Below are positions 3,255 through 63,900 of a stretch of 64,000 nucleotides of DNA, piece after piece (position 1 is the first letter of the stretch; each line of letters opens with the position of its first letter). Made by a program: the position numbers and the translations under genes. Source of the DNA: Chrysomallon squamiferum. Lineage: Eukaryota; Animalia; Mollusca. The notes below the pieces were generated by a model that was given only the letters and a program-made list of their open reading frames with translations, was not told where the DNA came from and searched no databases. The stretch covers positions 22,630,001 to 22,694,000 of the forward strand of contig CM022665.1 in the NCBI GenBank assembly GCA_012295275.1, in the 5' to 3' direction.

Positions 3255-3467
3255 CTGATATTGTTTCCACATAGAATTGACTTTTCTGAGTTCTTCTCCT
3301 TGAGTCTGAGCCTGACCTTCTAGAATCATAACTCGGTCATTCAGACTGGCCAGAGTTTGCTGAATCAAATCTCTACTCTCTATGCTGGTTTCAGCTAGCA
3401 ACTGTTGTGCCTGGTTGCTCATTGTAGCTATCTCCTTCTGCAGTGCTTTGATTTCATGCTGAAGTGC
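3255..3467 (-). CDS. SYNE1: SYNE1-like exon (ALQHEIKALQ...MWKQYQ)
   Basis: tag/gtttgt boundaries, 213 nt, phase 0-0. Confidence 0.9.
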
Positions 3468-3960
3468 CTAAACAATAAAGATTTAATTAATATTTATCCT
3501 CATATTCCATCCACCCATCCATATCTCCAATAAACGTATACTTCCATGTGTGCTATGCTTTAATATCTTTAAGTACCAAGTACCTGGTTTTCTCAAATTT
3601 ACATTTCCTGCAATGCTGTATTCTTCAAAGCTGTAATGACTCAATACTGTTTTGATAAATATTTTTATCATTCAATAAATTTATAAAATTGTAAAAATAT
3701 TTAACTTCTTGTTTTTATGTCATTAATTTTAATAACATCACGAAAATGTTATTATATCTTAATGTAAGAAGAACTACCAAAACAATAACAAAAAACCAAA
3801 AAACAACATTAATAAAAACAACGTCAGTAACAAAAAAACAACTGTTAATAACAACAACAACTAGACAATAATAGAAAAAACAACAAAAACCACAACATTA
3901 ACAACAACAACAACAATAATACATTTTTAATTTCAGTATATTAAACCCTCATAAGCTTAC

Positions 3961-9840: not shown

Positions 9841-9969
9841 CTGTTGTTGTAGTGAGCTGAGAGACATATTTAGTTCAACCACCTGTCCTGTTTGACCAAG
9901 TGGTCTTCCTACTGCAGGGACCCTTGTTCCAAATGAAGCACTGCGTTGCCTCACCTCTGCAGCACCACC
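9841..9969 (-). CDS. SYNE1: SYNE1-like exon (GGAAEVRQRS...SLSSLQQQ): end of the disordered insertion and start of helix C
   Basis: cag/gtaaaa boundaries, 129 nt, phase 0-0. Confidence 0.85.
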
Positions 9970-12187: not shown

Positions 12188-12247
12188 CACACACATATAT
12201 TAGTATTAGTAGAGGACTGACTAACTGTTACATCACACACAACCCAC

Positions 12248-13075
12248 CAGATGTTTTTCCAGGTGACCATGTGATGACCCTACACCTGAAATGACAGTAG
12301 CTTTTTCACTAAATGACTTAGGTGAGAGTGATCTCATTTGTGGAGGGGTGTAATATCGGTGGGTACCAGGTGACTGAGATGCTGCCTGAATAGACTCCTC
12401 AGATGCACTGAATCCTGCAGAATTTGATGACCTTCCAATAACTGATGACGTCTCTGGTGAAGTGCTCTGAGGATCGAGTTTTTGTTTCTTTGAAGAATGT
12501 CTGTCACTTTCAGTGTCTGTTTTGATTGGTCTGAAAGGAGAATCAAGTCCAAATCGGTCTTGTCTTTCTTTTGAGCTCAGCTTTGATTCAGAACCATAGT
12601 AATATCCAGTTACTTTCTTAGTATCATCTTTGTCTGGCAGTGTGTCTTCTGATCTTGTTGATAACAAACTTTCTTTACTGTAAGAATACTCCCCTCCACT
12701 GAAATCATCTACATTTCCACTAGATGCAAATGAGTATGATTTGGTCTTTCTAATCATGCTAATGTCAGACTGTTCTGAAAAAGATGATCTTGAAATACCA
12801 GGCTGAATTGTTCCAGTGGTTGATGACATGCTAGAAGATATATGTAATCCACTATCAGAGGTAAAACTGTCATAACCATTTTGCTGCTGTGCCCAAATTG
12901 GTGGCTCTTTGCCAGTGTAGTTTCCTTGGAAATCTGTTCCGTATGTTGCACTCAACATAAAACGTTTGCGGACTAGAGTGGGACTTCTTTGTAAACTTTT
13001 TTCTGAGAGTTCTCGACTTTTCTCATTGATTTCATTGACTCGAATTTGATAACTCTTTATTTGTGAAGCTAAATT
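12248..13075 (-). CDS. SYNE1: SYNE1-like large exon: helix B (NLASQIKSYQ...) followed by a Ser-rich disordered insertion
   Basis: tttcag acceptor, gtgggt donor, 828 nt, phase 0-0; lies within the 296-aa ORF. Confidence 0.85.
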
Positions 13076-44420: not shown

Positions 44421-44539
44421 CTGACACGATCTTCAACCAATTCTGCATCTTGTGGACTAAGTTTGGAAGCCATTTCATTGACTTTTGTTCGAATGCTGTC
44501 AACTTCATCTTGTCTGGCTGCAAGCTCTTCTGCAAGTTT
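44421..44539 (-). CDS. SYNE1: SYNE1-like exon (KLAEELAARQ...VEDRV)
   Basis: tag/gttagt boundaries, 119 nt, phase 0-2; continues the spectrin repeat begun in exon 58408-58713. Confidence 0.88.
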
Positions 44540-50843: not shown

Positions 50844-51663
50844 TGATGATGATTTATATATTGATAAAAATTATCACAGATATTTATTAGCAACACAAAC
50901 TGAAACAGAACAGTATATACAGTTTATCACAGACATTAAAAGATCCTTGAATTCTAAAATTTGAATGGAAGAAAAAATATCTCCATTAAAAAGCTTATCA
51001 CAAAATGTCAGGACTTCAGAAATGTTACTTATTATCCTATACAAAATATATGCTAACTATTTCCTACAACTAATGTCTTTGATATTTATTCAAATACATG
51101 AAAGTATTTTATCAATTAAAACATTTTAATAATTAAAAATTAAAATTAAAATTATAAAACATATGCTTCTTTAAAATATAATAATAATAACAAGGAAACA
51201 AACAATACTATCTTTGCTTAATGATTTAATGCTAATCATCATTCATATATTTTTTTTTTTTTTCAATCTATTATTAAGGAAAAAAACAACAAAACAATCA
51301 GAGTAATAATTAGTCTGTGTGTTTTAGTGCACAAATTTTTTAAGTATTAACTTTAGCTATTAAAATAATGTTTGTGTTAACTTTAACAGATCATTTCTAT
51401 ATAACTGAAAATAGAGACACTTGATATTTTCATAATAAAAATACACATGTTCAAGAGGATTAAAATGTCTAAAAAAGACAAAATTATTCTTTGATATTCG
51501 CTTTTATGTAAAATACACAGAATAAATAAATTGATAAAAAGTTTTACATGAAAAAACTTCTTATAATAAGAGATATATTTTGTTTTAAACTGACAAAAAT
51601 ATCACAGATATAAATTAAATAACCATCATTAAATGAGACAGGCATCAAAATACTGTTCACCAA

Positions 51664-53346
51664 CTAGTACCCAAATTTAGTCAGTTCATTTCTGAGATCT
51701 CTTTTCATCTTTGATGACATTTTCTTGAGCTGTCGTGCTGTTGATGCAGCAGCAGATAAAGCATCATCTAAATGGTAACGCCCCATGACACTCTCATAAT
51801 TTGAAGTGCGGTGACGTCGACGTGAAGATGTTCTGATATCAATACCACCTGAGAGTAAATCCATGTCATCATATGAGTGAACGAACTCTCTAACACGGTA
51901 TCTCCTCGGATGAACTAGAACAGGTGGTGGGGGAGCAGGCAGAGCCCTTCTGCTTTCAGGATATGTCATATTTGGATTAACTGGGAGTGCTCTTCGAGAA
52001 GGCAGTTGATAGTTACGAAGTCGCTCAAGTCTTTCATTAACATTGTTCAGATCATCTATGGTAACTCGGCGCTGGGTTGAAACTGGAGATGGTAGTGGAG
52101 CAACTCCATCTACTGGATATGTGCTCATGAAACGTGGCTGGTATTCATATGGCTCAGGTCCATTAACTTCTGGACCAGTAGCTCGGGGAACAGCTGGTTG
52201 AGGAACAGGTGCAAATCCATTTACAAATGAGCCAAATGGAGCATTTCTTGCTACAGCAGGTTCTCCTGTCATTGGTTTAGGTGATTCAAGTTGTGCTGAT
52301 GTTGCACGTGTTCCGAGGCTTGAACGGTTTCTCTGATCAAATGGTGACTCAAAAATACTTCTACTTGCTGTCTGAGATGGTGAACTCCTGTCCCCACTCT
52401 TTATGCGATTTACTTCTTCAAACAGTTCTTGAAATCGACCTTGTCTTTGTCTGCGGGTATTATCTCCTTCTGGAAAAAGCCTTAGAGATGTCTGAGTAGC
52501 CTGCTGAGAACTAGTTTGTGTCATTGCATCTCCCTGTCGACCAGCATTTTTCAAATCCTGGACATCACGATACAACATCTCCAACTGTTCTTTCTGAATT
52601 GACATGTCAGATGCTAAAGAAATATCATCACAGAAACTGCTGTTTGCTGAACTAATTCCTTGCTGCCTTTTAATGTCTTTCACTTCAGAGAGAATACTGC
52701 GTAACAAGTTGCTTTTTGACTTACTTCGTTTCTTAGTTTGAGCACCAATGGAATGAAGTGATAGATTTGATGTTTGTGCTGCTGAATCTTGGGGAAACCT
52801 TTCAGTCTGGGTCTGAATTGAGCGGGGAAACATATGTTCATCAGTTTGAGTTCGAGAATGAGCTGGAGTTTGAGAAGTAGCATTTCTAAGATCCTCAGGA
52901 TTTACAGGCAAAAAGAAGCCTGATACAAAACTAGCTATAGATTCTGTGTCTGAATCTCCAAATACAGTGGGTGTTTCAGAACCTATCCAATCAGATGGTT
53001 CTTCAAGATGGGTGTCAAAACTAGAGGCATGCATTGTGTCTCCTACTGTATCACCATATCCAGACTCCTCACTGTCAGACAAACATCCTGCAGCAGCAGC
53101 ACCTTTCTTTAACTTTTCCACCCGGCTTTGATTCAGAGTTCGATTTAAAGTCCTTGGAGTCATGGATCTGGACAAATTGCCACTGCGGGATCTCTTCATG
53201 GATGGTGATCCTGGAGGCTGGCCTTTTCCTTTGGATGATCCACGTGGTGTTTTCCATCGAAATGAATCATCAGCACTGTTGTCAAGTGGGTTTATATGTT
53301 GACGAGATGTGTTAGGAGTTTGTGTTGACCGACAAGGGCGTTTAGT
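51664..53346 (-). CDS. Putative alternative terminal exon: 560-aa disordered tail with multiple TQT (LC8-type) motifs, SH3 ligands and a C-terminal helix, ending in TAG
   Basis: The 511-aa ORF extends 49 codons upstream without a stop to a pyrimidine-rich acceptor (ctattcctccatcactttgtacag). It is phase 0, matching the donor of exon 58408-58713, and on the same strand as the host gene. Confidence 0.8.
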   Translation of the reverse strand, partial: TKRPCRSTQTPNTSRQHINPLDNSADDSFRWKTPRGSSKGKGQPPGSPSMKRSRSGNLSRSMTPRTLNRTLNQSRVEKLKKGAAAAGCLSDSEESGYGDTVGDTMHASSFDTHLEEPSDWIGSETPTVFGDSDTESIASFVSGFFLPVNPEDLRNATSQTPAHSRTQTDEHMFPRSIQTQTERFPQDSAAQTSNLSLHSIGAQTKKRSKSKSNLLRSILSEVKDIKRQQGISSANSSFCDDISLASDMSIQKEQLEMLYRDVQDLKNAGRQGDAMTQTSSQQATQTSLRLFPEGDNTRRQRQGRFQELFEEVNRIKSGDRSSPSQTASRSIFESPFDQRNRSSLGTRATSAQLESPKPMTGEPAVARNAPFGSFVNGFAPVPQPAVPRATGPEVNGPEPYEYQPRFMSTYPVDGVAPLPSPVSTQRRVTIDDLNNVNERLERLRNYQLPSRRALPVNPNMTYPESRRALPAPPPPVLVHPRRYRVREFVHSYDDMDLLSGGIDIRTSSRRRHRTSNYESVMGRYHLDDALSAAASTARQLKKMSSKMKRDLRNELTKFGY

Positions 53347-53510
53347 CTGTACAAAGTGATGGAGGAATAGCAGTTATTATAACAAGTTGTTGCATGCATG
53401 GTAATTGTACTATAAAAAATCTAAAACATGCTTTAGTGCATTATTATAATTAATAGTATTTATTGAAGAAAAAAAAATTCTAGATCAAAAGTGAAATTAG
53501 CAATTATTGA

Positions 53511-53610
53511 TTTTTTGGTTTTAGTAAAATAAAAATTAAAATCTGTCATTTTAATTATTAATTTTTGGTTTTATTAAAAAAAAAAAATTAAAATCTGTCA
53601 TTTTAATTAT
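53511..53610. repeat. Short tandem duplication (2 x about 50 bp)
   Basis: tttttggtttta.taaaa..aaaaattaaaatctgtcattttaattat occurs twice. Confidence 0.75.
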
Positions 53611-56600
53611 CAGAAAAAAAAAAAAAAAAATTTTTAGATAAATATTTCAGAAAATTTTCTTTTTTACTTCCTCCCAAAATAAGGATATAAATTTTGAATG
53701 CTTTATGTTAGAAAATCATAACCAAAAAGTAAAACTGAAACAAATGAAAAATGAAAATGCATAAAGAAAACAAAATTCACAAAAACTAGCAAGGCACTAT
53801 TAAAGACTTTTTATAAAAGGAAAAATAAGGACTAAACTAATAAATATGCCACACAATAATCTAAAGCTAAACATGCAATGCAACATCATTAAATTTCTGA
53901 AGCACCAAAACTTGAAAGATAAAAATAAACTGCTCCATTTGCAAACTTGCCTTGCATGGTATTTACAATACATTAATTTGTGTAGAAATTCTTTATCAAT
54001 TCACTGGGCCGTCAAATAAATGGATTTGGTAGAACACAAGTCACCATATGAAGGTGAATAAACAGGACATTGTTGACTGTACTAAGTGATTGAGGTTTCA
54101 AATGCATTCACAAACAAGTGAAAACAGTAAGCAATAGAAATCATAGTAAACAAAAAGACAAAATAATCTGAAAAACAGTTTTACCAGTTAGTCCAGGTAA
54201 GCAGAAATACAATACTGGCTGGGTAAGATATGGTATAATCCCTAAACAGATTAACTGACCCCATGTTGTGCAAGTTTGGGCAAGCTTAGCTATCCTCAAA
54301 GGAGTAGAGGGAAACTGAAGCAATGCTAGGTAATCACATTTTATATTTATGAACTGTTTAGTATGACATTTTATTATGCCTAAATTGACCAATACGAGTG
54401 GGTGAGGCTCACAGCTAATAGCTGTTGTTATTTTTGAATATATCAATATTAGTCTGAATCATTCACCAAATCCAGTGACTATAAACTTAGACTTCTTTTG
54501 TGTTCTGAGAGTTATTGATATGTTAAGGCTTGATTCATGTGACTGCTTTACTCCGCTAACGTAATTAACTACATTCAAACAATCAATTAAAAATGAACCA
54601 AATCTAACAATGGGTTTAATGCAGTTACATGCAATCACATGCTTGGACTGTTTATTAAATTTATTTATTTTACATCAGAGTAATTATTTTACACAATCAT
54701 AATTCACTTTAAAGTAATTCTTTTAATAAATTTATAAATAAATAAATAAACATAATGCAAATAATGTAAATGAAATAAATAAAATAAACAAAATAAATAA
54801 ATACACAAATAAAATCACCCAAACACCTAACATTTATGTTACAAATAAGAAAGCAGAAGGTCAGTAAATAAAATATTCTTTTATCAGTGTCTGCATGCCT
54901 AAGTGAAGTTTCTTTAACAATATTCAATGAAAATAATATCAATTACATTTTATCTTCAGTCACAGTAATCCTTCTATTGGTCCATTATACTTGTAGGATA
55001 CAAAGCTAAACATAAAACTGATCTGTTGCCAAACAAAGCAGATATTTTGAAAAGTTACCAAAACTTTTCACATTAACAGACTGAAAAGATAATTAATTTT
55101 ATTGTTTTCTTCAACAACAATACTTTGTGCATTAATAATTTTGTTAGATATTTTAAAACCATTTTTAATTGCTTCTTTCTTTCTTTTACTTTTGTTTTAT
55201 AATTATTAAGACAGAATATTTAAAAACATATTGATAACATTTAAAACAACAGAAGAAATTACAAAAAAAATAAAGTAAAATAATAATACAAATTTATCAT
55301 TTCTTATATTTGTAAAAACAATCTTTTAATGTGTATTTTTAAAATATTATTTTTTAATTTTTTATTTATATTATTATTATTATTTTTATTATTAACAACA
55401 GAATATTCTGAAGGATGCAAGTAATCTATTCTAATCAATTCTTTTATGAACATAGTTCTTATTGAACTCTATATTATGCATGCATTTCTGATTATGTAAC
55501 TATTAAAGCTCTAATTATTTGGAACAAAGTTATTTCAGGGATAAACAATTATATCTAGGATATTACAACTGTATTTTGTAAGTAAGTAATTATACTGGAT
55601 ATCGAAAAAAAAATATATATATTAATTTATGTTGTGTATACTCTAATTTTGATGGATTAGGTTTTTTCTTCTGTTTTCAGCTGTCACTTCTTTGATTTAT
55701 TTATTTTGGGGATTAGAGCTAATTTTTTTTTTTTTTTTTTTTTTCTGTGGATCAATGAAAGCAATAAGATTTAACTGACAAAATTTTCCTTTCTTATGTA
55801 TCAATAAATATGACTATAGGGCACTGACAAGGTATTTTACTTTGAAAAAATAAACAATACTGATGATTATTTTTGTTTCTTATTACAAGTCTGAGCACTG
55901 TTTTAAGTATGAATGTGGCTTTGCCCCTAACAAGCTCTATTTCTTATATAACTAGATCAGCAGTTTCTTTTTGAAAATACATGTTGTAACACAGCAATGC
56001 ACTTCAGTTTTTATCAGTGACGAAAAAGGACTTTCTAGCCATGATTAATTTGGTTTCGATTTGTAAAATATTTTCTGCATATATTGACTCAGAAAGCTAA
56101 ATTATATAAATTATAAACAGAACATTTATGCTTCCTATGACTACAAAAGCAGGCATGTAATTTGCTTGAACACACAGATTTTATGTGCAAACATTATTAC
56201 TGAATTCTTGTTTGTGGATGTTAATTGGCCCAGTGAATTTCAGTAAACAAGGAATGGCATGAAAGAATTAACACAAAACAGTAATGTACAAAGCAAATGT
56301 GCTGAATAACAGGTGCAGTCAGAAAGTGATTTATGATGTAACTGTGCTTAACTGTAACAGTCACAAAGCAAACCAGGGTTTGAAGAATTTATTTTTAGTA
56401 CAGTAAAATCAGTTCCTTTGTGTTCCTTTATACACACACACACACACACATATGCATCCATGCATAGATGCTCACACATGTAAACATACATTTACAAACA
56501 TGCATGTGTATAATGTACATATAAAGGAATACTAAATTTCTTTGTAAACAAGTTAGACTGAAACAAAAAACTCTCTTCAAATGTAAAATAATAACAAAGA

Positions 56601-58407
56601 ATTATTGGTTATCATACTATTAACCCTGGACTGTTTTGCTGGGAAAAGGTATGTGCAGAAAAACACTTAAATAAAGTAAATGAATGGTGTCAGAAATTTA
56701 CTGTTATTCAAACAACTATTCCTCCATCACCTGATTAAAGACAACAACACTAAAGTTTTCATGCAATAGTAAGTATAATATCAGTACCTGTATGTCTATG
56801 TTTGTAACCAAACTTCAAGTATGTTGTCTAGTTCTTGGTTAGAAAAATAAAATTCTGCTGCTGCACTCCAAGTTAAGTGCATCATTCCATATCTTCTCTT
56901 GAATACAGTCTAATTTTTCATATATTTCTTTTCCTTTTTGGAACATCTTTTCCCATTTTATTTTCTTCTCATTTTCACAATGTTAACAATAGTTTTGTAT
57001 GGTTTATTGAAAGCTTTACACTCCCCAGTTTTATACTGTATGGTTGTATGTATATTTGTATAAGTATCTACCAAACTACAAATGGCTACAGTTTAAAAAT
57101 CTATTACATTCTGAAATTTAAAAGGACTATTTTTCACACCTCTGAGTTCTAAACAGAAATGCTACAATACAACACACAAAATGTACACTAAATGTTATTG
57201 TATAAAATTACAATGAATTATTTTTTTTTTTTTTTTTTTACATCCTAAAATAAAGGTAATATTTTTCAAATAGAAAAATCACTGACTAAACTATAAACAG
57301 AAAATCCATCATCCATTCATCAGTCAGTCAGTATTTTATGTCCATCCATCCTCCTGGTACAAGACATATTTTTTTTTTTTTTTGTACAAAATATACACAG
57401 GAAATATGCCTTAAAACAATTACAGAAATCATTTTTGTTTGTTCAGTGCATATGGTGACCTGTGAGATTAACTATGCTATGTTTAGTAAAACAGTTTTGA
57501 AAAAACCAACAACAACAACAACAAAAAATCACCCTGATATTAAAAGTTCAGTTTAAAATTTGTTTCTGCATGCAAAGCAAGTAGGCAAACTAATCGACTA
57601 ATCAATGATGGAAGCAGCTTTAATTGCATGCATTTTATTTCTCACTGTTGTCTCAAAAACTATTTTAAATACACTTCTTCACTTTACAGACAACAAACTG
57701 TTGTGAAACAAAAAACAGAATATGCCATATTACTGAATCAAATACAAAAAGAAAAATCATTGTCTTAACTTTTCTTTTAATTACACTGGAAAGCTGATAT
57801 TAAACAACATGATGGAATCCTGTATGTTATTATATTTGTCTGAAATACTAAGACAACTATACTGACAGAAAGAATATGATAATTTGATTATCACATTTCA
57901 TAAAATGCATGCACTCAGACATCTTATTGTAACAATAAGATGATGGAAATTCAAAAAGCTTTTAAAGAAAACCACACAGAATAAAGATTCTAAAAAAAAT
58001 GTTAACTTAGTTTAGTGGTTTGCTGGAAACTGCTTAAAAAACGATTCTCCTCTACTATTCCACAACCAAAATATAATTGTCAAAAGGTGCATTATCTTTT
58101 ATGCTCTCTTTCAGTGAATTAAAGTTTGTTTATGAATTGAGAAAACTAGCTGCACAACACATTTATAAATAAGAAATGTAGATAGTTTTTAGGCATGAGA
58201 TATACCCCAAGTTATATATTAGACACCAAAAATATTTTAAATGTTAGAAACAGTATCTATCTGTTTCTGTTTCATTTTACATTTTTCCTTGTGCAATTGC
58301 AGCAAACCACAATTTCAAGTATTTAAAATAAATAATAATAATAAAATAAAAATGATTAAAAATTCAGTTGGAAAAATGTTAAGTCCAAATGGACAAACTA
58401 TTCCTAC

Positions 58408-58713
58408 CTTCATCAGCATACTTTTGTTCTGTACTGAAGCCTCTGACTGGTCAATACGCTCCAGCTCTCTGACATAGTTCTCCAAGTCTTCATCCATGGT
58501 TTCCTGCTGAGCCTGCAGGTCACGGGCAGAGATCATTTCCTGACAACGTTGATCTATCAGCATGTCCATTTGTCCAAGAAGTTCCTCCCAGTCATCCTGA
58601 AGAGCTCTCATGACTGGGTCAACAAGAGAGGAGTTATGTTCTGTCAGAGAGTTGTACTGGGAGAGAAGTTCTTTGATGGCTGGGCCTCGGGCTTGGATCT
58701 CATCCCTTAATGC
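58408..58713 (-). CDS. SYNE1: SYNE1-like exon (ALRDEIQARG...DDWEELL...SMLMK)
   Basis: cag/gtagga boundaries, 306 nt, phase 0-0. Confidence 0.92.
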
Positions 58714-59126
58714 CTGAAATGAAGAATAAATACAGAAATCAAATAAGGAACAAGAAATAACAGAATATTCTAAATGTGTAAAAATACAAGAATTATTCAT
58801 GAATTATCCAGTTCATACATTTTAGTGGAAAATAATCATTAACGTTATGCAGTTTTTATAAACCAACAAATGAATATCAAATATGATGTATAATAAATAT
58901 TTTGTTAATCTATTTCCAAGTTTATGAAGGCGCATCTATGGTTAAATAACTTAACATATTTTCATAATAAATATCTATCTATTAAAAGGTTTTACTTCTT
59001 GTTTTGGACAATCTGATTAATTTTAAAGCCAAGTAATTGTTTTGTCTAATCTACTGATTCATAATAATGTAATTTTTACTTTGTGTTTTTTATCACAATG
59101 AGTACTTCATTGTTTCTAGAATGTAC

Positions 59127-59303
59127 CTTAAGTTTTTCAATGTCCAGCTCTGCTGCTTCAGCATGTAGTTTGGATGGCTTCTGTTCAAGGTCACTGACCT
59201 CTTCCTGCTTGCTGTGAAGCCAGTGTCGGAGATCTGTTCGTTGACGATCAACATTGTCCCACTGACGTATAATATCTCGCAAGTGATCAAGTCGTTTTTC
59301 AAC
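59127..59303 (-). CDS. SYNE1: SYNE1-like exon (VEKRLDHLRD...LRHWLHSK...IEKLK)
   Basis: tag/gtacat boundaries, 177 nt, phase 0-0. Confidence 0.9.
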
Positions 59304-59566
59304 CTAGACAGAAATAAACACACCAGTAAAATAAGGAATTGATGCTTAAACAATTTTCAGAAATACTACATGAGCTATTAGGTGGAGGCAGATGCAAATA
59401 TATGAATATGTTAATAAAATATTTAAGATTTAAATTAAACCAGAGTATATGTAGCTGTGCAAATTTAAAAAAAAAGAAAAGAAAAAAAGAAAAGAAGCTA
59501 TTTTGAAACATTACATATATTTCTATTACTTATTACTCATGATGGAGCAGTAACAATTTGTCTTAC

Positions 59567-59737
59567 CTGGTTAATGGCATCATGTAACAGTCCATTGACA
59601 GTGTCTGCAAGCTGTGAAACAGAATCAGTTAGAGCAGCCTCTGTCTGGTCCAAACTGTCCATACTACCCAGGTTCTCACAGCGCACAGAGGAATTACACA
59701 ATTCTTGTTTCATCTGGGTTAGTCTGTCTAGCATAGC
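59567..59737 (-). CDS. SYNE1: SYNE1-like exon (AMLDRLTQMK...DAINQ)
   Basis: cag/gtaaga boundaries, 171 nt, phase 0-0. Confidence 0.9.
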
Positions 59738-59943
59738 CTGTAAACAACAACAGACATTTGAATTAAATTTTATTTTCAACAATATTGATAAACAAATAAG
59801 TTAAAAATTACATTTAAAATGGTTTTTATTAACAAAAATTAAATTTCATGTAAAAATTTGGAATTTGTCTTGGGAAATAAATATGATGTACAATATATAT
59901 ATTGTATTTACATATAATACAACACACACACACACACACACAA

Positions 59944-59984
<41 letters not shown>

Positions 59985-60084
59985 AAGTATTATAATATGA
60001 CATGATATATGTTATATGTGACACATTATATATATTATATAATGACAAAACCAGTATCTGTACTTAGCTGAATATAGACTATAC

Positions 60085-60246
60085 CTGGGTACTTTCTCTT
60101 TGTCTCTGGGCTTCTTCAAGGGTGTCAGGAACATTTGTTTCATTTTCCTGTAGCCAAGATGGAAGTTCCTCTTGAAGGAAATACTGGTTCTTTTCCAGCA
60201 GGTCTTTGTACTGTTGCCACTTCTGATAAACTTCATTGAGGTGATC
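60085..60246 (-). CDS. SYNE1: SYNE1-like exon (DHLNEVYQKW...RESTQ)
   Basis: tag/gtatag boundaries, 162 nt, phase 0-0. Confidence 0.9.
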
Positions 60247-60903
60247 CTAAAATATATTCCAAAATGTTACTCGAAACTGACAGAAACATTATTTCTGAAC
60301 TTTTAGTATGTAGTGACACTTACTAAAGTTACAAAAATAATTTCACAAATTATTCCATACAATTCTTTTATCTATTAATTATATTACACTTTTTTATGTA
60401 AGTGATTTTTATATATATATTATGTATGTATGTACGTATGTATGTATGTAATATCTATGTATAAATGCATGAAACAATCTTATATTACACTACAAAGGAA
60501 TATTGTTAAAATACAGTCAAAATATTTGTATAAATAAATTACTAAGATATTGTTGATGTTTGTACAACATTTTTGGAACAATTTATGGTACATATATGAT
60601 TTTCTTATAATGGATTTGTATAGAAAAACAACTATATAATAAACTTTGCTTATCATTTGCCTGCAAATTATTATTACTACTGAAGAAAGATATAATCTCA
60701 TGTTTTCATGTTAATTTATATTCTATTATGATTTTATCTTACGTTATATATGTACTTGTTGATCAATATGTACCAAATGAACATTCAAGAAAATTGATTT
60801 ATTTATATTTATCTCTGATACACGCAACTGCAAATGTTCCATTTATTATTATCTATCTACATTTAATTTAAACCACAAAGATTAATCAGTAGAAAAGTCT
60901 TAC

Positions 60904-60933
60904 CTTTTTGTGTTTTGAAGACCCCTTTCCCAT
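60904..60933 (-). CDS. Putative alternative first coding exon encoding MGKGSSKHKK (N-myristoylation plus polybasic signal)
   Basis: ACAACT-ATG-G Kozak context, 10 codons, then a strong AAG|GTAAGA donor in phase 0, in frame with exon 60085-60246. Confidence 0.6.
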
Positions 60934-63900
60934 AGTTGTTATATAAACAGACAAAAGACTGTGCTATTCTTTTTAACAATTTAAATCTTGAGGTATATTT
61001 ACCATTTTGTATTAATATATTTCTTTTTCATATTTAAAAAAAAGTAAACATATTACCATGTCTGACCGAGCCTTTTTCGTTAAATTGTTTTCTACTTATC
61101 AGCATTTTTATTACCTTTATATTATCATTTACAGCATACATTGTAGAAGATGTAAAAATAAGTTGTGGCAGTTTTCATAATAAAATCTATGCAATATTCT
61201 TAATACACAGTTATGAAAGAAAGATATTGGCAGTGCCACCATAAATCATTTTTATGCAATTAGTTTCTAGTTAAGTGACAATCCAGATTTCTTGCTGATG
61301 GTTGGCTAACACGCAAAGCCAATTAAATCTGAAATCTTACTTCATTGTAAATGTATGAGCAAATCTAAACCCTCTATTTTTGTCTGCATTATCACATGCA
61401 CATAGGCAGTTAATTCTAATACAACAGCAAATTAAGTAAAGCCAAAGATAATTTAAATACACTTTCATAAAAGCCTTAACCAAATGAAAGAAGTGTATTC
61501 AGTTCTAGAGCTAGGTTTTATTGTGTTGCATAGTGATCACATTAATCTGATTCATGTATTTTAATCTAATGTCAAAATGGTAAAAACATTTCAAAATTAA
61601 AATTTATAAAACGTATTCACCCTTAAAATTTTCATTGTTAGAAAAGAAACACACTCAAATACATCAGAATGCACAATATGTTCTTTTCTCATTTTGATAA
61701 TTATCGTAGGTCAAAACATATGATTAGTAAACTTCACTCAAACTTGGGTCTTTGTTAAAACGGGTTTAACTGAATTGTCCACAGTTAGATAATTATTTGC
61801 AGGGAAAATATCACTGTTCAATTCAATTACTGAAATAAACATTCTTTCAAACTTGAGATAACATCAAGTTACAGTATTTCATGGTTAAACCAGACTGAAT
61901 ATTTAGTATTTTTTATATGCAGGTATTTACATCAAAACAGCAGCAAGCAGGAGCTGGAAAGGTTAACTGTCAGTAGGTTTTTGCTGATATTTACCATTTA
62001 GTGAAACTTAAGACGAACATTAATTTGCAAACAATTTTTTTTTTTTTCTTGTTTTAAATTTTAAAACAAATCTTGTATATACTATTTTAAATTGGTGCTT
62101 GTATTTATCTAAAATAAAAAATACAAATGAATTCTATTCTATTTATTCTAAGTTTCTTCTTTTAAGAAGAAGGCATTATTAATCATCTATTTATTATTGT
62201 TATATTCAGCCAGTCCTAATAATCTGTTGTTTTATCTTTCATTAATAAATAACCAATTATATTCTTTTTGTTAAACTGAAACAGCAGTTACTTATACCTT
62301 TTTTGTTTTTGGATTTTTTCTTTAATATGCATTTTCTTTCTTTCTTTATTTATTTACTTATTTGAATTTTATTTAATATATACATCATGTAAGAAAACAC
62401 ATTCCTATAATTACTTTCACTGGTAGATTTAACCAAATTATGATCCCATTTTGTATCCACTGTATTAAACTTTGTATAATTTGCTTACATAGAAAAACTG
62501 ATATTTCTCAAAAATAAAAGTGAATTCTAAAATTATGGTTCTTTTTGTAATTAAAAAAAAAGAAAAAAAAAAGAAACTAGAGATTTTAATATATAAAATA
62601 TCTTTTCTTTTTTTCTTTCTTAATTTTGTTTTATTACACAAAATTAAATGTTGTTTAAATATGATGTATAACTGGGAAAATTCTATTATCTGTCTATTGC
62701 CATGGCATTTCTTATGCATTACATGCAAACATAACAAATAAAAAATAAAAAACAACAAGCCTGGTGCAGAATACATGGTTTATTGGTATATTCACCAAAT
62801 CCATAAATAAATATATATGAATATAATACTGATTGTTTTAAGTAAATGTACTAGTTAACTAGTTAAAAATGGAAAATTAAAATCATATGATAGTAAGTTT
62901 TTTTTAATACAAACATGTAGTAAATGTATAATTAAAGCAGACAGTTAAATATTATTAAATCATGGGCAAGATAGAATAACACACACAACAGAAAATTGTC
63001 TATCAGTTTTCAGCAAATGTTTTGTGTTTATTGTAAGTCATCCCCTTCATGTTTAATTAAAAAACACTGTAATGTAATGCACTGATGGTCTTTTGTTTTA
63101 TACTGCACAATATTTCAATTATATGTAATATCACTATTAAAATATTATCATCAGTTTCACAAGTTCACAAAATTATAATAATATGCAGGATCATGAAATT
63201 TAAAAAAAAATTGCAGTGAGTATATGAATTATTTATCTTTCTCCAGGAAGGACTACATAATTAGCAACTAAAATAAAAACTGATAAATTTTATCACAGTT
63301 AGAAAACATCTAATAAATAAAAGCACACTGATATAAATTAAAATATCACAGAAAGTGAAAATGGACAGAGGTAAAAATAAATATTAACACAGTAATAGGT
63401 GCATAACATAAAGAGCTATGTTATTTCAGCATTTTGTCTATTAATTTCTGTATTTCTGTATTATGCCTCTCTTTGTGATAACTAGCAGGCATTTTGTGTA
63501 ACAGTATACAGACAGTATAATAATACATTCTTGAGAGATTTTGCAAATAAAATATAATCTGTTTCCTCCTGCAGAATATAATATATATGCTGTAGACAAA
63601 TTAAGCAAAGTAAATTTTAGATGATACCAAATTTAAAGTTTAATGTATAAATTTATCAAATGATAAAAAATTAGAAAGCAAATAAGGTAGTCATTGGTAA
63701 TCTTTTCAAACATTTCTAAAATTATAAACTGTTGAAAATTTCTTTCAGTATCAAAAACAATATTTATATTTTATATGTGGTACATCTTTAAATATTTACA
63801 TCACAATGATGCTGAGGTCTGTTATGATTATGTGTCAAACTGCAGTGACATGTGACCAAAATGAATTTTGAACAGCTATATTTAAATATTAATGTCATTA

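What the first reader, a model, noticed from the sequence alone, without database searches (positions are those of the whole stretch)
51664..60933. Predicted 'gene within the gene': a myristoylated, CH-less and KASH-less mini-nesprin built from a private first exon, four rod exons and a private last exon
Seen: a 10-codon first exon (MGKGSSKHKK, 60904-60933), four phase-0 spectrin exons (54+57+59+102 aa) and a 560-aa terminal exon (51664-53346) can be joined in frame into an 842-aa protein. Known: nesprin genes make many short isoforms through internal promoters and alternative ends; the giant form is anchored by N-terminal CH domains (actin) and a C-terminal KASH domain (nuclear envelope). Inference: this product would replace both anchors with a lipid membrane anchor at one end and an LC8/SH3/possibly centrosomal tail at the other. 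That would make it a membrane-to-microtubule adaptor independent of the LINC complex. I know of no described nesprin isoform with this architecture.
Basis: partly seen in the sequence, partly recalled or inferred. Interest (0 to 1): 0.9.

Follow-up and report, generated by a model that had tools for sequence, protein, structure and literature searches.

The report
Mollusc nesprin with LC8-binding alternative tail
A snail-like mollusc's giant nuclear-anchoring gene (nesprin-1) has an extra last exon that is spliced in RNA, found in many molluscs, and stops the protein before its usual nuclear anchor with a floppy tail predicted to bind the hub protein LC8; a likely fat-anchored start exon would give a small membrane-bound version, but that small transcript is not yet shown.

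Summary
The six exons are real, phase 0 and join to 842 aa. The 560-aa last exon is solid. The 58408→53346 joint is in RNA contigs of 3 of 4 runs. Homologues occur in 14 named molluscs, with no named hit outside Mollusca. The tail is disordered, with seven conserved QT motifs of LC8 type.

The last exon is probably not private to a mini isoform. In 4 of 4 runs, contigs enter exon 60246 from an upstream rod exon, and three bivalve gene models end long rods with this tail.

The MGKGSSK first exon has only indirect support. Two Mytilus models put MGNKSS…+basic on the same acceptor and give the same 863–878-aa product, and such a motif with a donor is rare by chance. Its joint was not seen in the contigs.

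The rod is two spectrin repeats plus one helix, not four repeats. CH-less, KASH-less nesprins are known (p50Nesp1, CPG2, Drosophila Msp300-PE). Multivalent LC8 binding would dimerise the tail and does not imply a microtubule link.

Verdict: a new, mollusc-conserved variant of nesprin alternative ends. The mini isoform is about even odds; the membrane-to-microtubule role is untested.

The parts
60904..60933 (-). Coding part of the likely alternative first exon, MGKGSSKHKK (Gly2, Ser6, Lys7; 4 Lys, no acidic residue), strong Kozak context, donor AAG|gtaaga
   Evidence: Sequence. Same acceptor used by MGNKSS... exons in Mytilus models P0018 and P0042. Chance control. Joint not seen in RNA contigs.
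60085..60246 (-). Rod exon A, 54 aa; begins at a spectrin-repeat boundary; acceptor also used by the upstream giant-form exon outside the window
   Evidence: Joints and loose ends in 4 of 4 runs; loose end reads NLEGTARQIR, like Mytilus NLQSTAEQIK
59567..59737 (-). Rod exon B, 57 aa
59127..59303 (-). Rod exon C, 59 aa
58408..58713 (-). Rod exon D, 102 aa; its donor is the branch point to 53346 (tail) or 44539 (giant form)
   Evidence: Pfam Spectrin E 0.0036, below the curated cut-off; joint to 53346 in 3 of 4 runs, loose end into exon 44539 in X4
51664..53346 (-). Alternative last exon, 560 aa + stop; mostly disordered; conserved in gastropods and bivalves
53314..53337 (-). First TQT motif (PCRSTQTP), upstream of the first Met of the exon, so translated only when spliced to an upstream coding exon
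   Evidence: QT kept in 17 of 17 rows that reach it; first in-exon Met is residue 50
52489..52878 (-). Predicted multivalent LC8 array: QT at tail residues 159, 167, 180, 203, 277, 285, with predicted helices 208-228 and 252-270 in between
   Evidence: QT in 29, 28, 28, 27, 29 and 29 of 29 rows; AlphaFold2
51676..51771 (-). Conserved C-terminal helix (tail residues 526-557); partner unknown
   Evidence: pLDDT about 90-95; alignment; no database match
44421..44539 (-). Next rod exon of the giant form (KLAEELAARQ...), reached when the last exon is skipped; the 3' boundary is my reading of the sequence
   Evidence: X4 contig of 22,341 nt continues into it; sequence

Best explanation
This molluscan nesprin-1 gene has a conserved alternative last exon, spliced onto the spectrin rod in RNA, that stops the protein before KASH with a disordered tail predicted to be zipped into a dimer by several LC8 molecules; it likely ends long rod transcripts and, with a likely myristoylated first exon, would also give an 842-aa membrane-bound mini isoform. 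SHOWN: exon structure; the 58408->53346 joint; the upstream-rod->60246 and 58408->44539 paths; conservation of the tail and its QT motifs. INFERRED from annotation and sequence: an internal promoter near 61 kb drives the MG exon, which splices to 60246 as in Mytilus. INFERRED from known biochemistry: Met1 is removed; NMT myristoylates Gly2, recognising Ser6 and Lys7 as in ARF6; the lysines add binding to acidic membranes; two spectrin repeats act as a short spacer; LC8 dimers bind about seven QT sites on two parallel tails, stabilising the flanking helices and presenting the conserved C-terminal helix as a dimer to an unknown partner. The gene thus likely has a two-way choice at 60246 (giant upstream exon or MG lead) and at 58408 (continue towards KASH or end in the LC8 tail), and the mini form is one of four possible products: a LINC-independent cytoplasmic or cortical scaffold.
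For:: 58408->53346 GT..AG joint in 3 of 4 runs; contigs run unbroken from an upstream exon through 60246 in 4 of 4; in X1-X3 the rod contig ends exactly at 58408, as expected at a branch; homologues in 4 named gastropods and 10 named bivalves; the quick tree separates the 4 named gastropods from the 5 named bivalves in it and puts the window with the gastropods (SH-aLRT 99). M. coruscus CAC5390745 (878 aa) and M. edulis CAG2199470 (863 aa) are MG lead + orthologous rod + tail. M. coruscus CAC5390742 (2937 aa) shares the last 841 aa of CAC5390745 but starts in upstream rods. Sinanodonta (2582 aa) and Pinctada (3560 aa) models also end in the tail; 10 QT (1 of 10,000 shuffles reach it) and 5 TQT (0 of 10,000); 7.5-10.6 TQT per 1000 aa in tails against 0-0.5 in rods of three long models; 39 of 39 ORF calls that hold the first motif (many near-identical) have Gln 4-9 residues before it, as a conserved phase-0 CAG acceptor would give. 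Papers: the LC8 motif sits in disordered segments flanked by coiled coil (PMC3078936, abstract); NMT reads Ser6 and Lys7 in ARF6 GKVLSK (PMC7044312, passages).
Against: The first exon rests on two gene models of one genus, whose transcript support I could not see, and on a motif chance test. The other 2 of 4 models that start at this rod exon (Plakobranchus, Magallana) have non-MG starts. The window and Mytilus leads share only MGxxSS + basic residues. Lys3 fails my recalled PROSITE myristoylation pattern. There are 24 ATGs in the 800 nt upstream of the start. Three RefSeq Mytilus models and several others annotate the tail as a separate 412-557-aa gene. LC8 binding and myristoylation were not tested. 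No CH or KASH exon was identified in the window, so nesprin-1 identity rests on orthologue names and Spectrin_SYNE1 hits. All RNA comes from one study.
Confidence: 0.6

Rival explanations
1. Only the last exon is real. It makes a long KASH-less nesprin ending in the LC8 tail; MGKGSSKHKK is intronic chance sequence, or a first exon used only for KASH-directed transcripts, so the 842-aa protein is not made.
For: In 4 of 4 runs the contigs enter 60246 from the upstream rod exon. 3 bivalve models are long rod + tail. 2 of 4 models starting at this exon lack MG.
Against: Mytilus models place an MG+basic exon on the same acceptor and join it to the tail. The chance rate of such an exon is 0.05-0.10 per 64-kb strand. 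Contigs drop rare variants.
Confidence: 0.25
2. One reading: the mini isoform is the main product of both end exons and links membrane to microtubules or the centrosome through LC8/dynein and the C-terminal helix.
For: Same architecture in two Mytilus models. KANK1 uses multivalent LC8 to bridge cortex and microtubules (PMC12803091, abstract and Introduction). Msp300-PE organises an MTOC (PMC11230431, passages). A resemblance of the last helix to the AKNA C-terminus is recalled, not tested.
Against: The tail is probably shared with long forms. No hit to any centrosomal or microtubule-binding family. LC8 is now viewed as a dimerisation hub rather than a dynein cargo adaptor (10.1101/2023.09.15.557927, passages).
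Confidence: 0.1
3. The 51.7-53.3 kb ORF is mainly a nested single-exon gene with its own promoter, and the splice from 58408 is incidental.
For: RefSeq Mytilus models of 428-429 aa start at the internal MHASSF. RNA contigs also cover parts of the intron upstream of the exon.
Against: The joint is in 3 of 4 runs. The CRSTQT motif lies upstream of the first in-exon Met yet is kept in 17 of 17 rows that reach it, behind a Gln consistent with a CAG acceptor in 39 of 39 ORF calls.
Confidence: 0.05

Closest known systems
Drosophila Msp300-PE (PMC11230431, passages)
   Same: Nesprin isoform from an internal promoter with no CH, only 2 spectrin repeats, no KASH, a large isoform-specific region and a non-KASH membrane anchor
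   Different: About 1 MDa, built of ~100-aa tandem repeats, with a predicted C-terminal transmembrane helix. Here the product is 842 aa with a predicted N-terminal lipid anchor and an LC8-type tail. No sequence relationship was found.
Human rod-only nesprin-1 isoforms p50Nesp1, p41, p31, p23, p12, CPG2 (PMC3388047, passages)
   Same: Made by pairing internal 5' and 3' ends; lack both CH and KASH; p50 localises to microtubules
   Different: Described as composed of spectrin repeats; no 560-aa conserved tail described in the passages read
Human p931KASH-Nesp1 (PMC3388047, passage)
   Same: Nesprin-1 alternative N-terminus with a predicted N-myristoylation site
   Different: Giant and KASH-containing; the site is an ELM prediction only
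Dystonin BPAG1a3 (PMC3352950; 10.1101/122010, passages)
   Same: Spectrin-family giant gene with an alternative first exon carrying a conserved myristoylation motif
   Different: A spectraplakin with plakin, EF-hand and GAR domains; not a short rod isoform
Multivalent LC8 clients: KANK1 L2, ASCIZ (PMC12803091 abstract and Introduction; PMC10046861 and PMC5963919 search listing)
   Same: Long disordered segment with many TQT-type motifs, expected to be dimerised and stiffened by LC8
   Different: Unrelated proteins; here binding is predicted only and the array caps a spectrin rod

Membership tests
Nesprin-1/SYNE1 locus | Spectrin-repeat rod of nesprin type | tested here: met
   Orthologous long models hit Spectrin_SYNE1 at E 1e-59 to 1e-83. 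6 of 15 single window exons hit it weakly (E 7e-6 to 0.019, below cut-off). The fold of the rod part ranks tandem spectrin repeats first, best E 1.3e-3.
Nesprin-1/SYNE1 locus | N-terminal CH pair in the giant form | not testable with these tools
   The gene runs off the window; no genome is held; the long bivalve models carry no CH hit and may be 5'-incomplete
Nesprin-1/SYNE1 locus | C-terminal KASH in the giant form | not testable with these tools
   Rod exons continue to the window's low end; no KASH exon was identified inside
CH-less, KASH-less rod isoform | Alternative last exon spliced to the rod, ending before KASH | tested here: met
   Joint 58408->53346 in 3 of 4 runs and an in-frame stop at 51664-51666
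CH-less, KASH-less rod isoform | Internal first exon spliced to the rod | tested here: inconclusive
   Not seen in contigs of 4 runs, which cannot show absence; present in 2 Mytilus models
CH-less, KASH-less rod isoform | Both ends on one transcript | not testable with these tools
   Only assembled short-read contigs were available
N-myristoylated proteins | Gly2, Ser/Thr6, Lys7 and a basic second signal at a true N-terminus | tested here: inconclusive
   Motif present and of ARF6 type; fails my recalled PROSITE pattern at Lys3; true start not shown
Multivalent LC8 clients | Several conserved TQT-type motifs in disordered sequence near helices | tested here: met
Multivalent LC8 clients | Physical binding to LC8 | not testable with these tools
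Centrosomal targeting tails (AKNA-like, recalled lead) | Detectable homology of the C-terminal helix | tested here: inconclusive
   No hit with the whole-tail profile (21 hits), the Atlas, Pfam or PDB; a 30-aa helix could fall below these thresholds

The most novel reading that the evidence does not exclude
Since before gastropods and bivalves split, the nesprin-1 gene has carried a second, LINC-independent protein: a myristoylated (possibly also Lys3-acylated) two-repeat mini-nesprin whose tail is zipped by about seven LC8 dimers into a stiff rod that ties the plasma membrane to microtubule ends or basal bodies through a conserved C-terminal helix, a KANK1-like solution built inside a nesprin gene.
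Probability: 0.18. Interest if true: 0.72.

Novelty: new variant of a known kind. Interest (0 to 1): 0.5.

Why it matters
The finding adds a third kind of nesprin C-terminus (not KASH, not bare rod): a 560-aa disordered tail with a conserved array of LC8-type motifs, kept across gastropods and bivalves. Current annotations mostly split it off as an uncharacterised gene. No nesprin-LC8 link or molluscan nesprin isoform study was evident in the listings. If the myristoylated first exon is confirmed, one gene would switch both anchors independently, giving a testable model of how nesprins work away from the nuclear envelope. The general principle (alternative ends, CH-less and KASH-less forms) is well known, which caps the surprise.

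Tried and rejected
RNA test of the first exon: no 60904->60246 joint in 4 of 4 runs. X3 has an 811-nt contig reaching from beyond 61400 to 60922, and no run covers the bin 60437-60767. Contigs drop rare variants and a hole proves nothing, so this counts neither way. Depth ratios (tail joint/rod 0.10, 0.15, 0.51, 0) were computed but not used, because contig depth cannot rank parts of a gene. The 58408->44539 path is seen only as a loose end in X4, since the stretch laid was 51500-61400. No whole genome was held, so the upstream exon, CH and KASH were not located. Genomic test of the first exon in other molluscs: the one metagenome scan gave 2 loci from 225 pattern matches, and neither reaches the orthologous intron. 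A search with the N-terminal 330 aa of the Mytilus mini model found only 3 proteins of 482-1537 aa. Tail identity: Pfam 0 families; ESM Atlas no usable hit for residues 470-560; PDB sequence best E 0.7; Foldseek best E 4.9; the wide structural search was busy and not run. SH3 binding: two class-I-like RxxPxxP matches (residues 452, 467) in a proline-rich, poorly aligned stretch; left as a weak lead. AKNA likeness: recalled, no test supports it. Literature search was badly formed and uninformative. Earlier scan findings: none. The careful tree did not finish; the quick tree is reported. Searches used 59126-59302 for exon C, off by one; corrected to 59127-59303's own list and rescanned.

Full report
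Observation. The minus strand carries the six exons at 60904-60933, 60085-60246, 59567-59737, 59127-59303, 58408-58713 and 51664-53346. All are phase 0 with AG/GT ends, and they total 842 aa. They lie in a spectrin-rod gene whose exons continue to the low end of the window. No CH or KASH exon was identified, and no genome is held. Orthologous proteins are named SYNE1 or nesprin-1-like and hit Pfam Spectrin_SYNE1 strongly. A quick tree of 36 tails places the window with the gastropods, apart from the bivalves (the careful search did not finish).

RNA. Four RNA runs of one study, held as contigs, were laid on 51500-61400. The three rod-rod joints are in 4 of 4 runs. The 58408->53346 joint, with GT..AG ends, is in 3 of 4. 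In X4 a 22,341-nt contig instead goes from 58408 into the next rod exon at 44539. In 4 of 4 runs the contig continues from 60246 into an exon outside the window that reads NLEGTARQIR, matching Mytilus NLQSTAEQIK at the same place. So 58408 is a real branch point and 60246 is an internal exon of the giant form. The only entry into 60246 that these assemblies keep is the upstream rod, so the simplest reading is that the tail ends long transcripts there (inference). A 60904->60246 joint was not seen; contigs cannot show absence.

The last exon. It has 37 homologues among 7,993 scored candidates. A 29-sequence profile found 21 proteins among 1.84 billion representatives. Every species name seen is a mollusc (4 gastropods, 10 bivalves); many hits are unnamed. 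There is no Pfam, Atlas, PDB or fold match. AlphaFold2 gives a mostly disordered chain (mean pLDDT 52.5) with helices at 208-228, 252-270, 296-316, 430-444 and 526-557. The five invariant glutamines and four of the invariant threonines are QT motifs. The window tail has 10 QT (1 of 10,000 shuffles reach that) and 5 TQT (0 of 10,000). QT at 159, 277 and 285 is in 29 of 29 rows, at 167 and 180 in 28, at 203 in 27, and at 9 in 17 of 17 rows that reach it. This fits the LC8 motif in disordered sequence flanked by coiled coil (PMC3078936, abstract). The first motif lies before the first in-exon Met (residue 50) and behind a Gln in 39 of 39 ORF calls, many of them near-identical. That argues that the exon is translated by splicing from upstream, against tail-only annotations such as the 428-429-aa RefSeq Mytilus models. 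Three bivalve models join long rods to the tail: M. coruscus 2937 aa, Sinanodonta 2582 aa and Pinctada 3560 aa.

The first exon. M. coruscus CAC5390745 (878 aa) and M. edulis CAG2199470 (863 aa) begin MGNKSSTRKQ with a 38-aa lead (13 Lys/Arg, no acidic residue). The two other models that start at this exon (Plakobranchus 832 aa, Magallana 576 aa) have non-MG starts, so the count is 2 of 4. I could not see what transcript evidence lies behind any of these models. In the window, an MGxxxS/T frame with an in-frame donor occurs once on the minus strand, 657 nt above that acceptor, against 0.05-0.10 expected per 64 kb (post hoc pattern). MGKGSSK has Lys3, which my recalled PROSITE pattern rejects, but ARF6 (GKVLSK) is myristoylated on Gly2 and Lys3 with Ser6 and Lys7 read by NMT (PMC7044312, passages). 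I put the first exon at about 0.7 and the 842-aa product at about 0.5.

Rod content. On the Mytilus orthologue the rod folds as helices 26-75, 81-113, 124-191, 198-232 and 242-314, i.e. two whole repeats plus one further helix. Tandem spectrin-repeat structures rank first, best E 1.3e-3. The new start therefore sits at a repeat boundary, and the tail cuts the third repeat.

Mechanism. Shown: exon use at 58408, conservation, motif content. Inferred: internal promoter, myristoylation with a basic second signal, a short spectrin spacer, LC8-driven parallel dimerisation of the tail, and display of the C-terminal helix to an unknown partner. A microtubule or centrosome role is not supported by any test here. 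LC8 is described as a dimerisation hub (10.1101/2023.09.15.557927, passages), although in KANK1 multivalent LC8 does build a membrane-to-microtubule rod (PMC12803091, abstract and Introduction). The AKNA likeness of the last helix is recalled only; PMC8535656 (passages) confirms only that AKNA's C-terminus targets the centrosome.

Comparison. Human nesprin-1 makes CH-less, KASH-less rod isoforms, and p931KASH has a predicted myristoylation site (PMC3388047, passages). Drosophila Msp300-PE has no CH, 2 repeats, no KASH and a predicted transmembrane anchor, and organises an MTOC (PMC11230431, passages). Dystonin BPAG1a3 has a myristoylation lead (PMC3352950; 10.1101/122010; passages). The searches nesprin+myristoylation+isoform+KASH-less (45 papers, 20 listed), nesprin+LC8 (10), nesprin+mollus (22, 20 listed) and nesprin+N-myristoylation (6, 5 listed) showed, at listing level, no study of a nesprin LC8 tail or of molluscan isoforms. 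The library lacks most subscription papers, and no supplements were read.

Verdict. A real, mollusc-conserved alternative nesprin C-terminus with a predicted LC8 array. The myristoylated start is probable but unproven, the mini isoform is about even odds, and the microtubule function is speculative. New variant of a known kind; interest 0.5.

Noticed in passing
L001 420-2261 and L002 885-3059 (+): In two metagenome loci holding the orthologue of rod exons C+D, the intron just upstream carries a same-strand single-frame ORF (613 and 724 aa) that starts with a myristoylation-type polybasic lead (MGQSHGK..., MGQSQGK...) and stops about 200-250 nt before the rod acceptor. The two share little beyond the lead and PPPSPF.DR, have internal phase-0 donors and no Pfam hit. 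This could be a second lipid-anchored start or a nested gene, two exons downstream of the window's MG exon.
   Followed up: partly
L001 about 2466-2954, L002 about 3306-3800: Rod exons C and D are one exon in both loci; the window has an intron of about 413 nt between them.
   Followed up: no
window 12233-13075 (-): A second candidate alternative last exon: phase-0 acceptor, a helical start, then a Ser-rich 280-aa frame ending in a stop; no Pfam hit; RNA and conservation not checked.
   Followed up: partly
window 9841-9969 (-): A 50% GC, 43-codon phase-0 non-spectrin exon candidate (GGAAEVRQRSASFG...), with an in-frame ATG five codons above the acceptor; could be a cassette or another first exon.
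   Followed up: no
window 53347-58407 and 60922-61400: RNA contigs cover much of these intronic stretches, while two bins inside short rod introns have none; may be nascent RNA, DNA carry-over or UTR.
   Followed up: no
P0037, P0103, P0104: Unnamed, deeply branching tail homologues outside the gastropod and bivalve groups of the quick tree; they may extend the exon to other mollusc classes.
   Followed up: no
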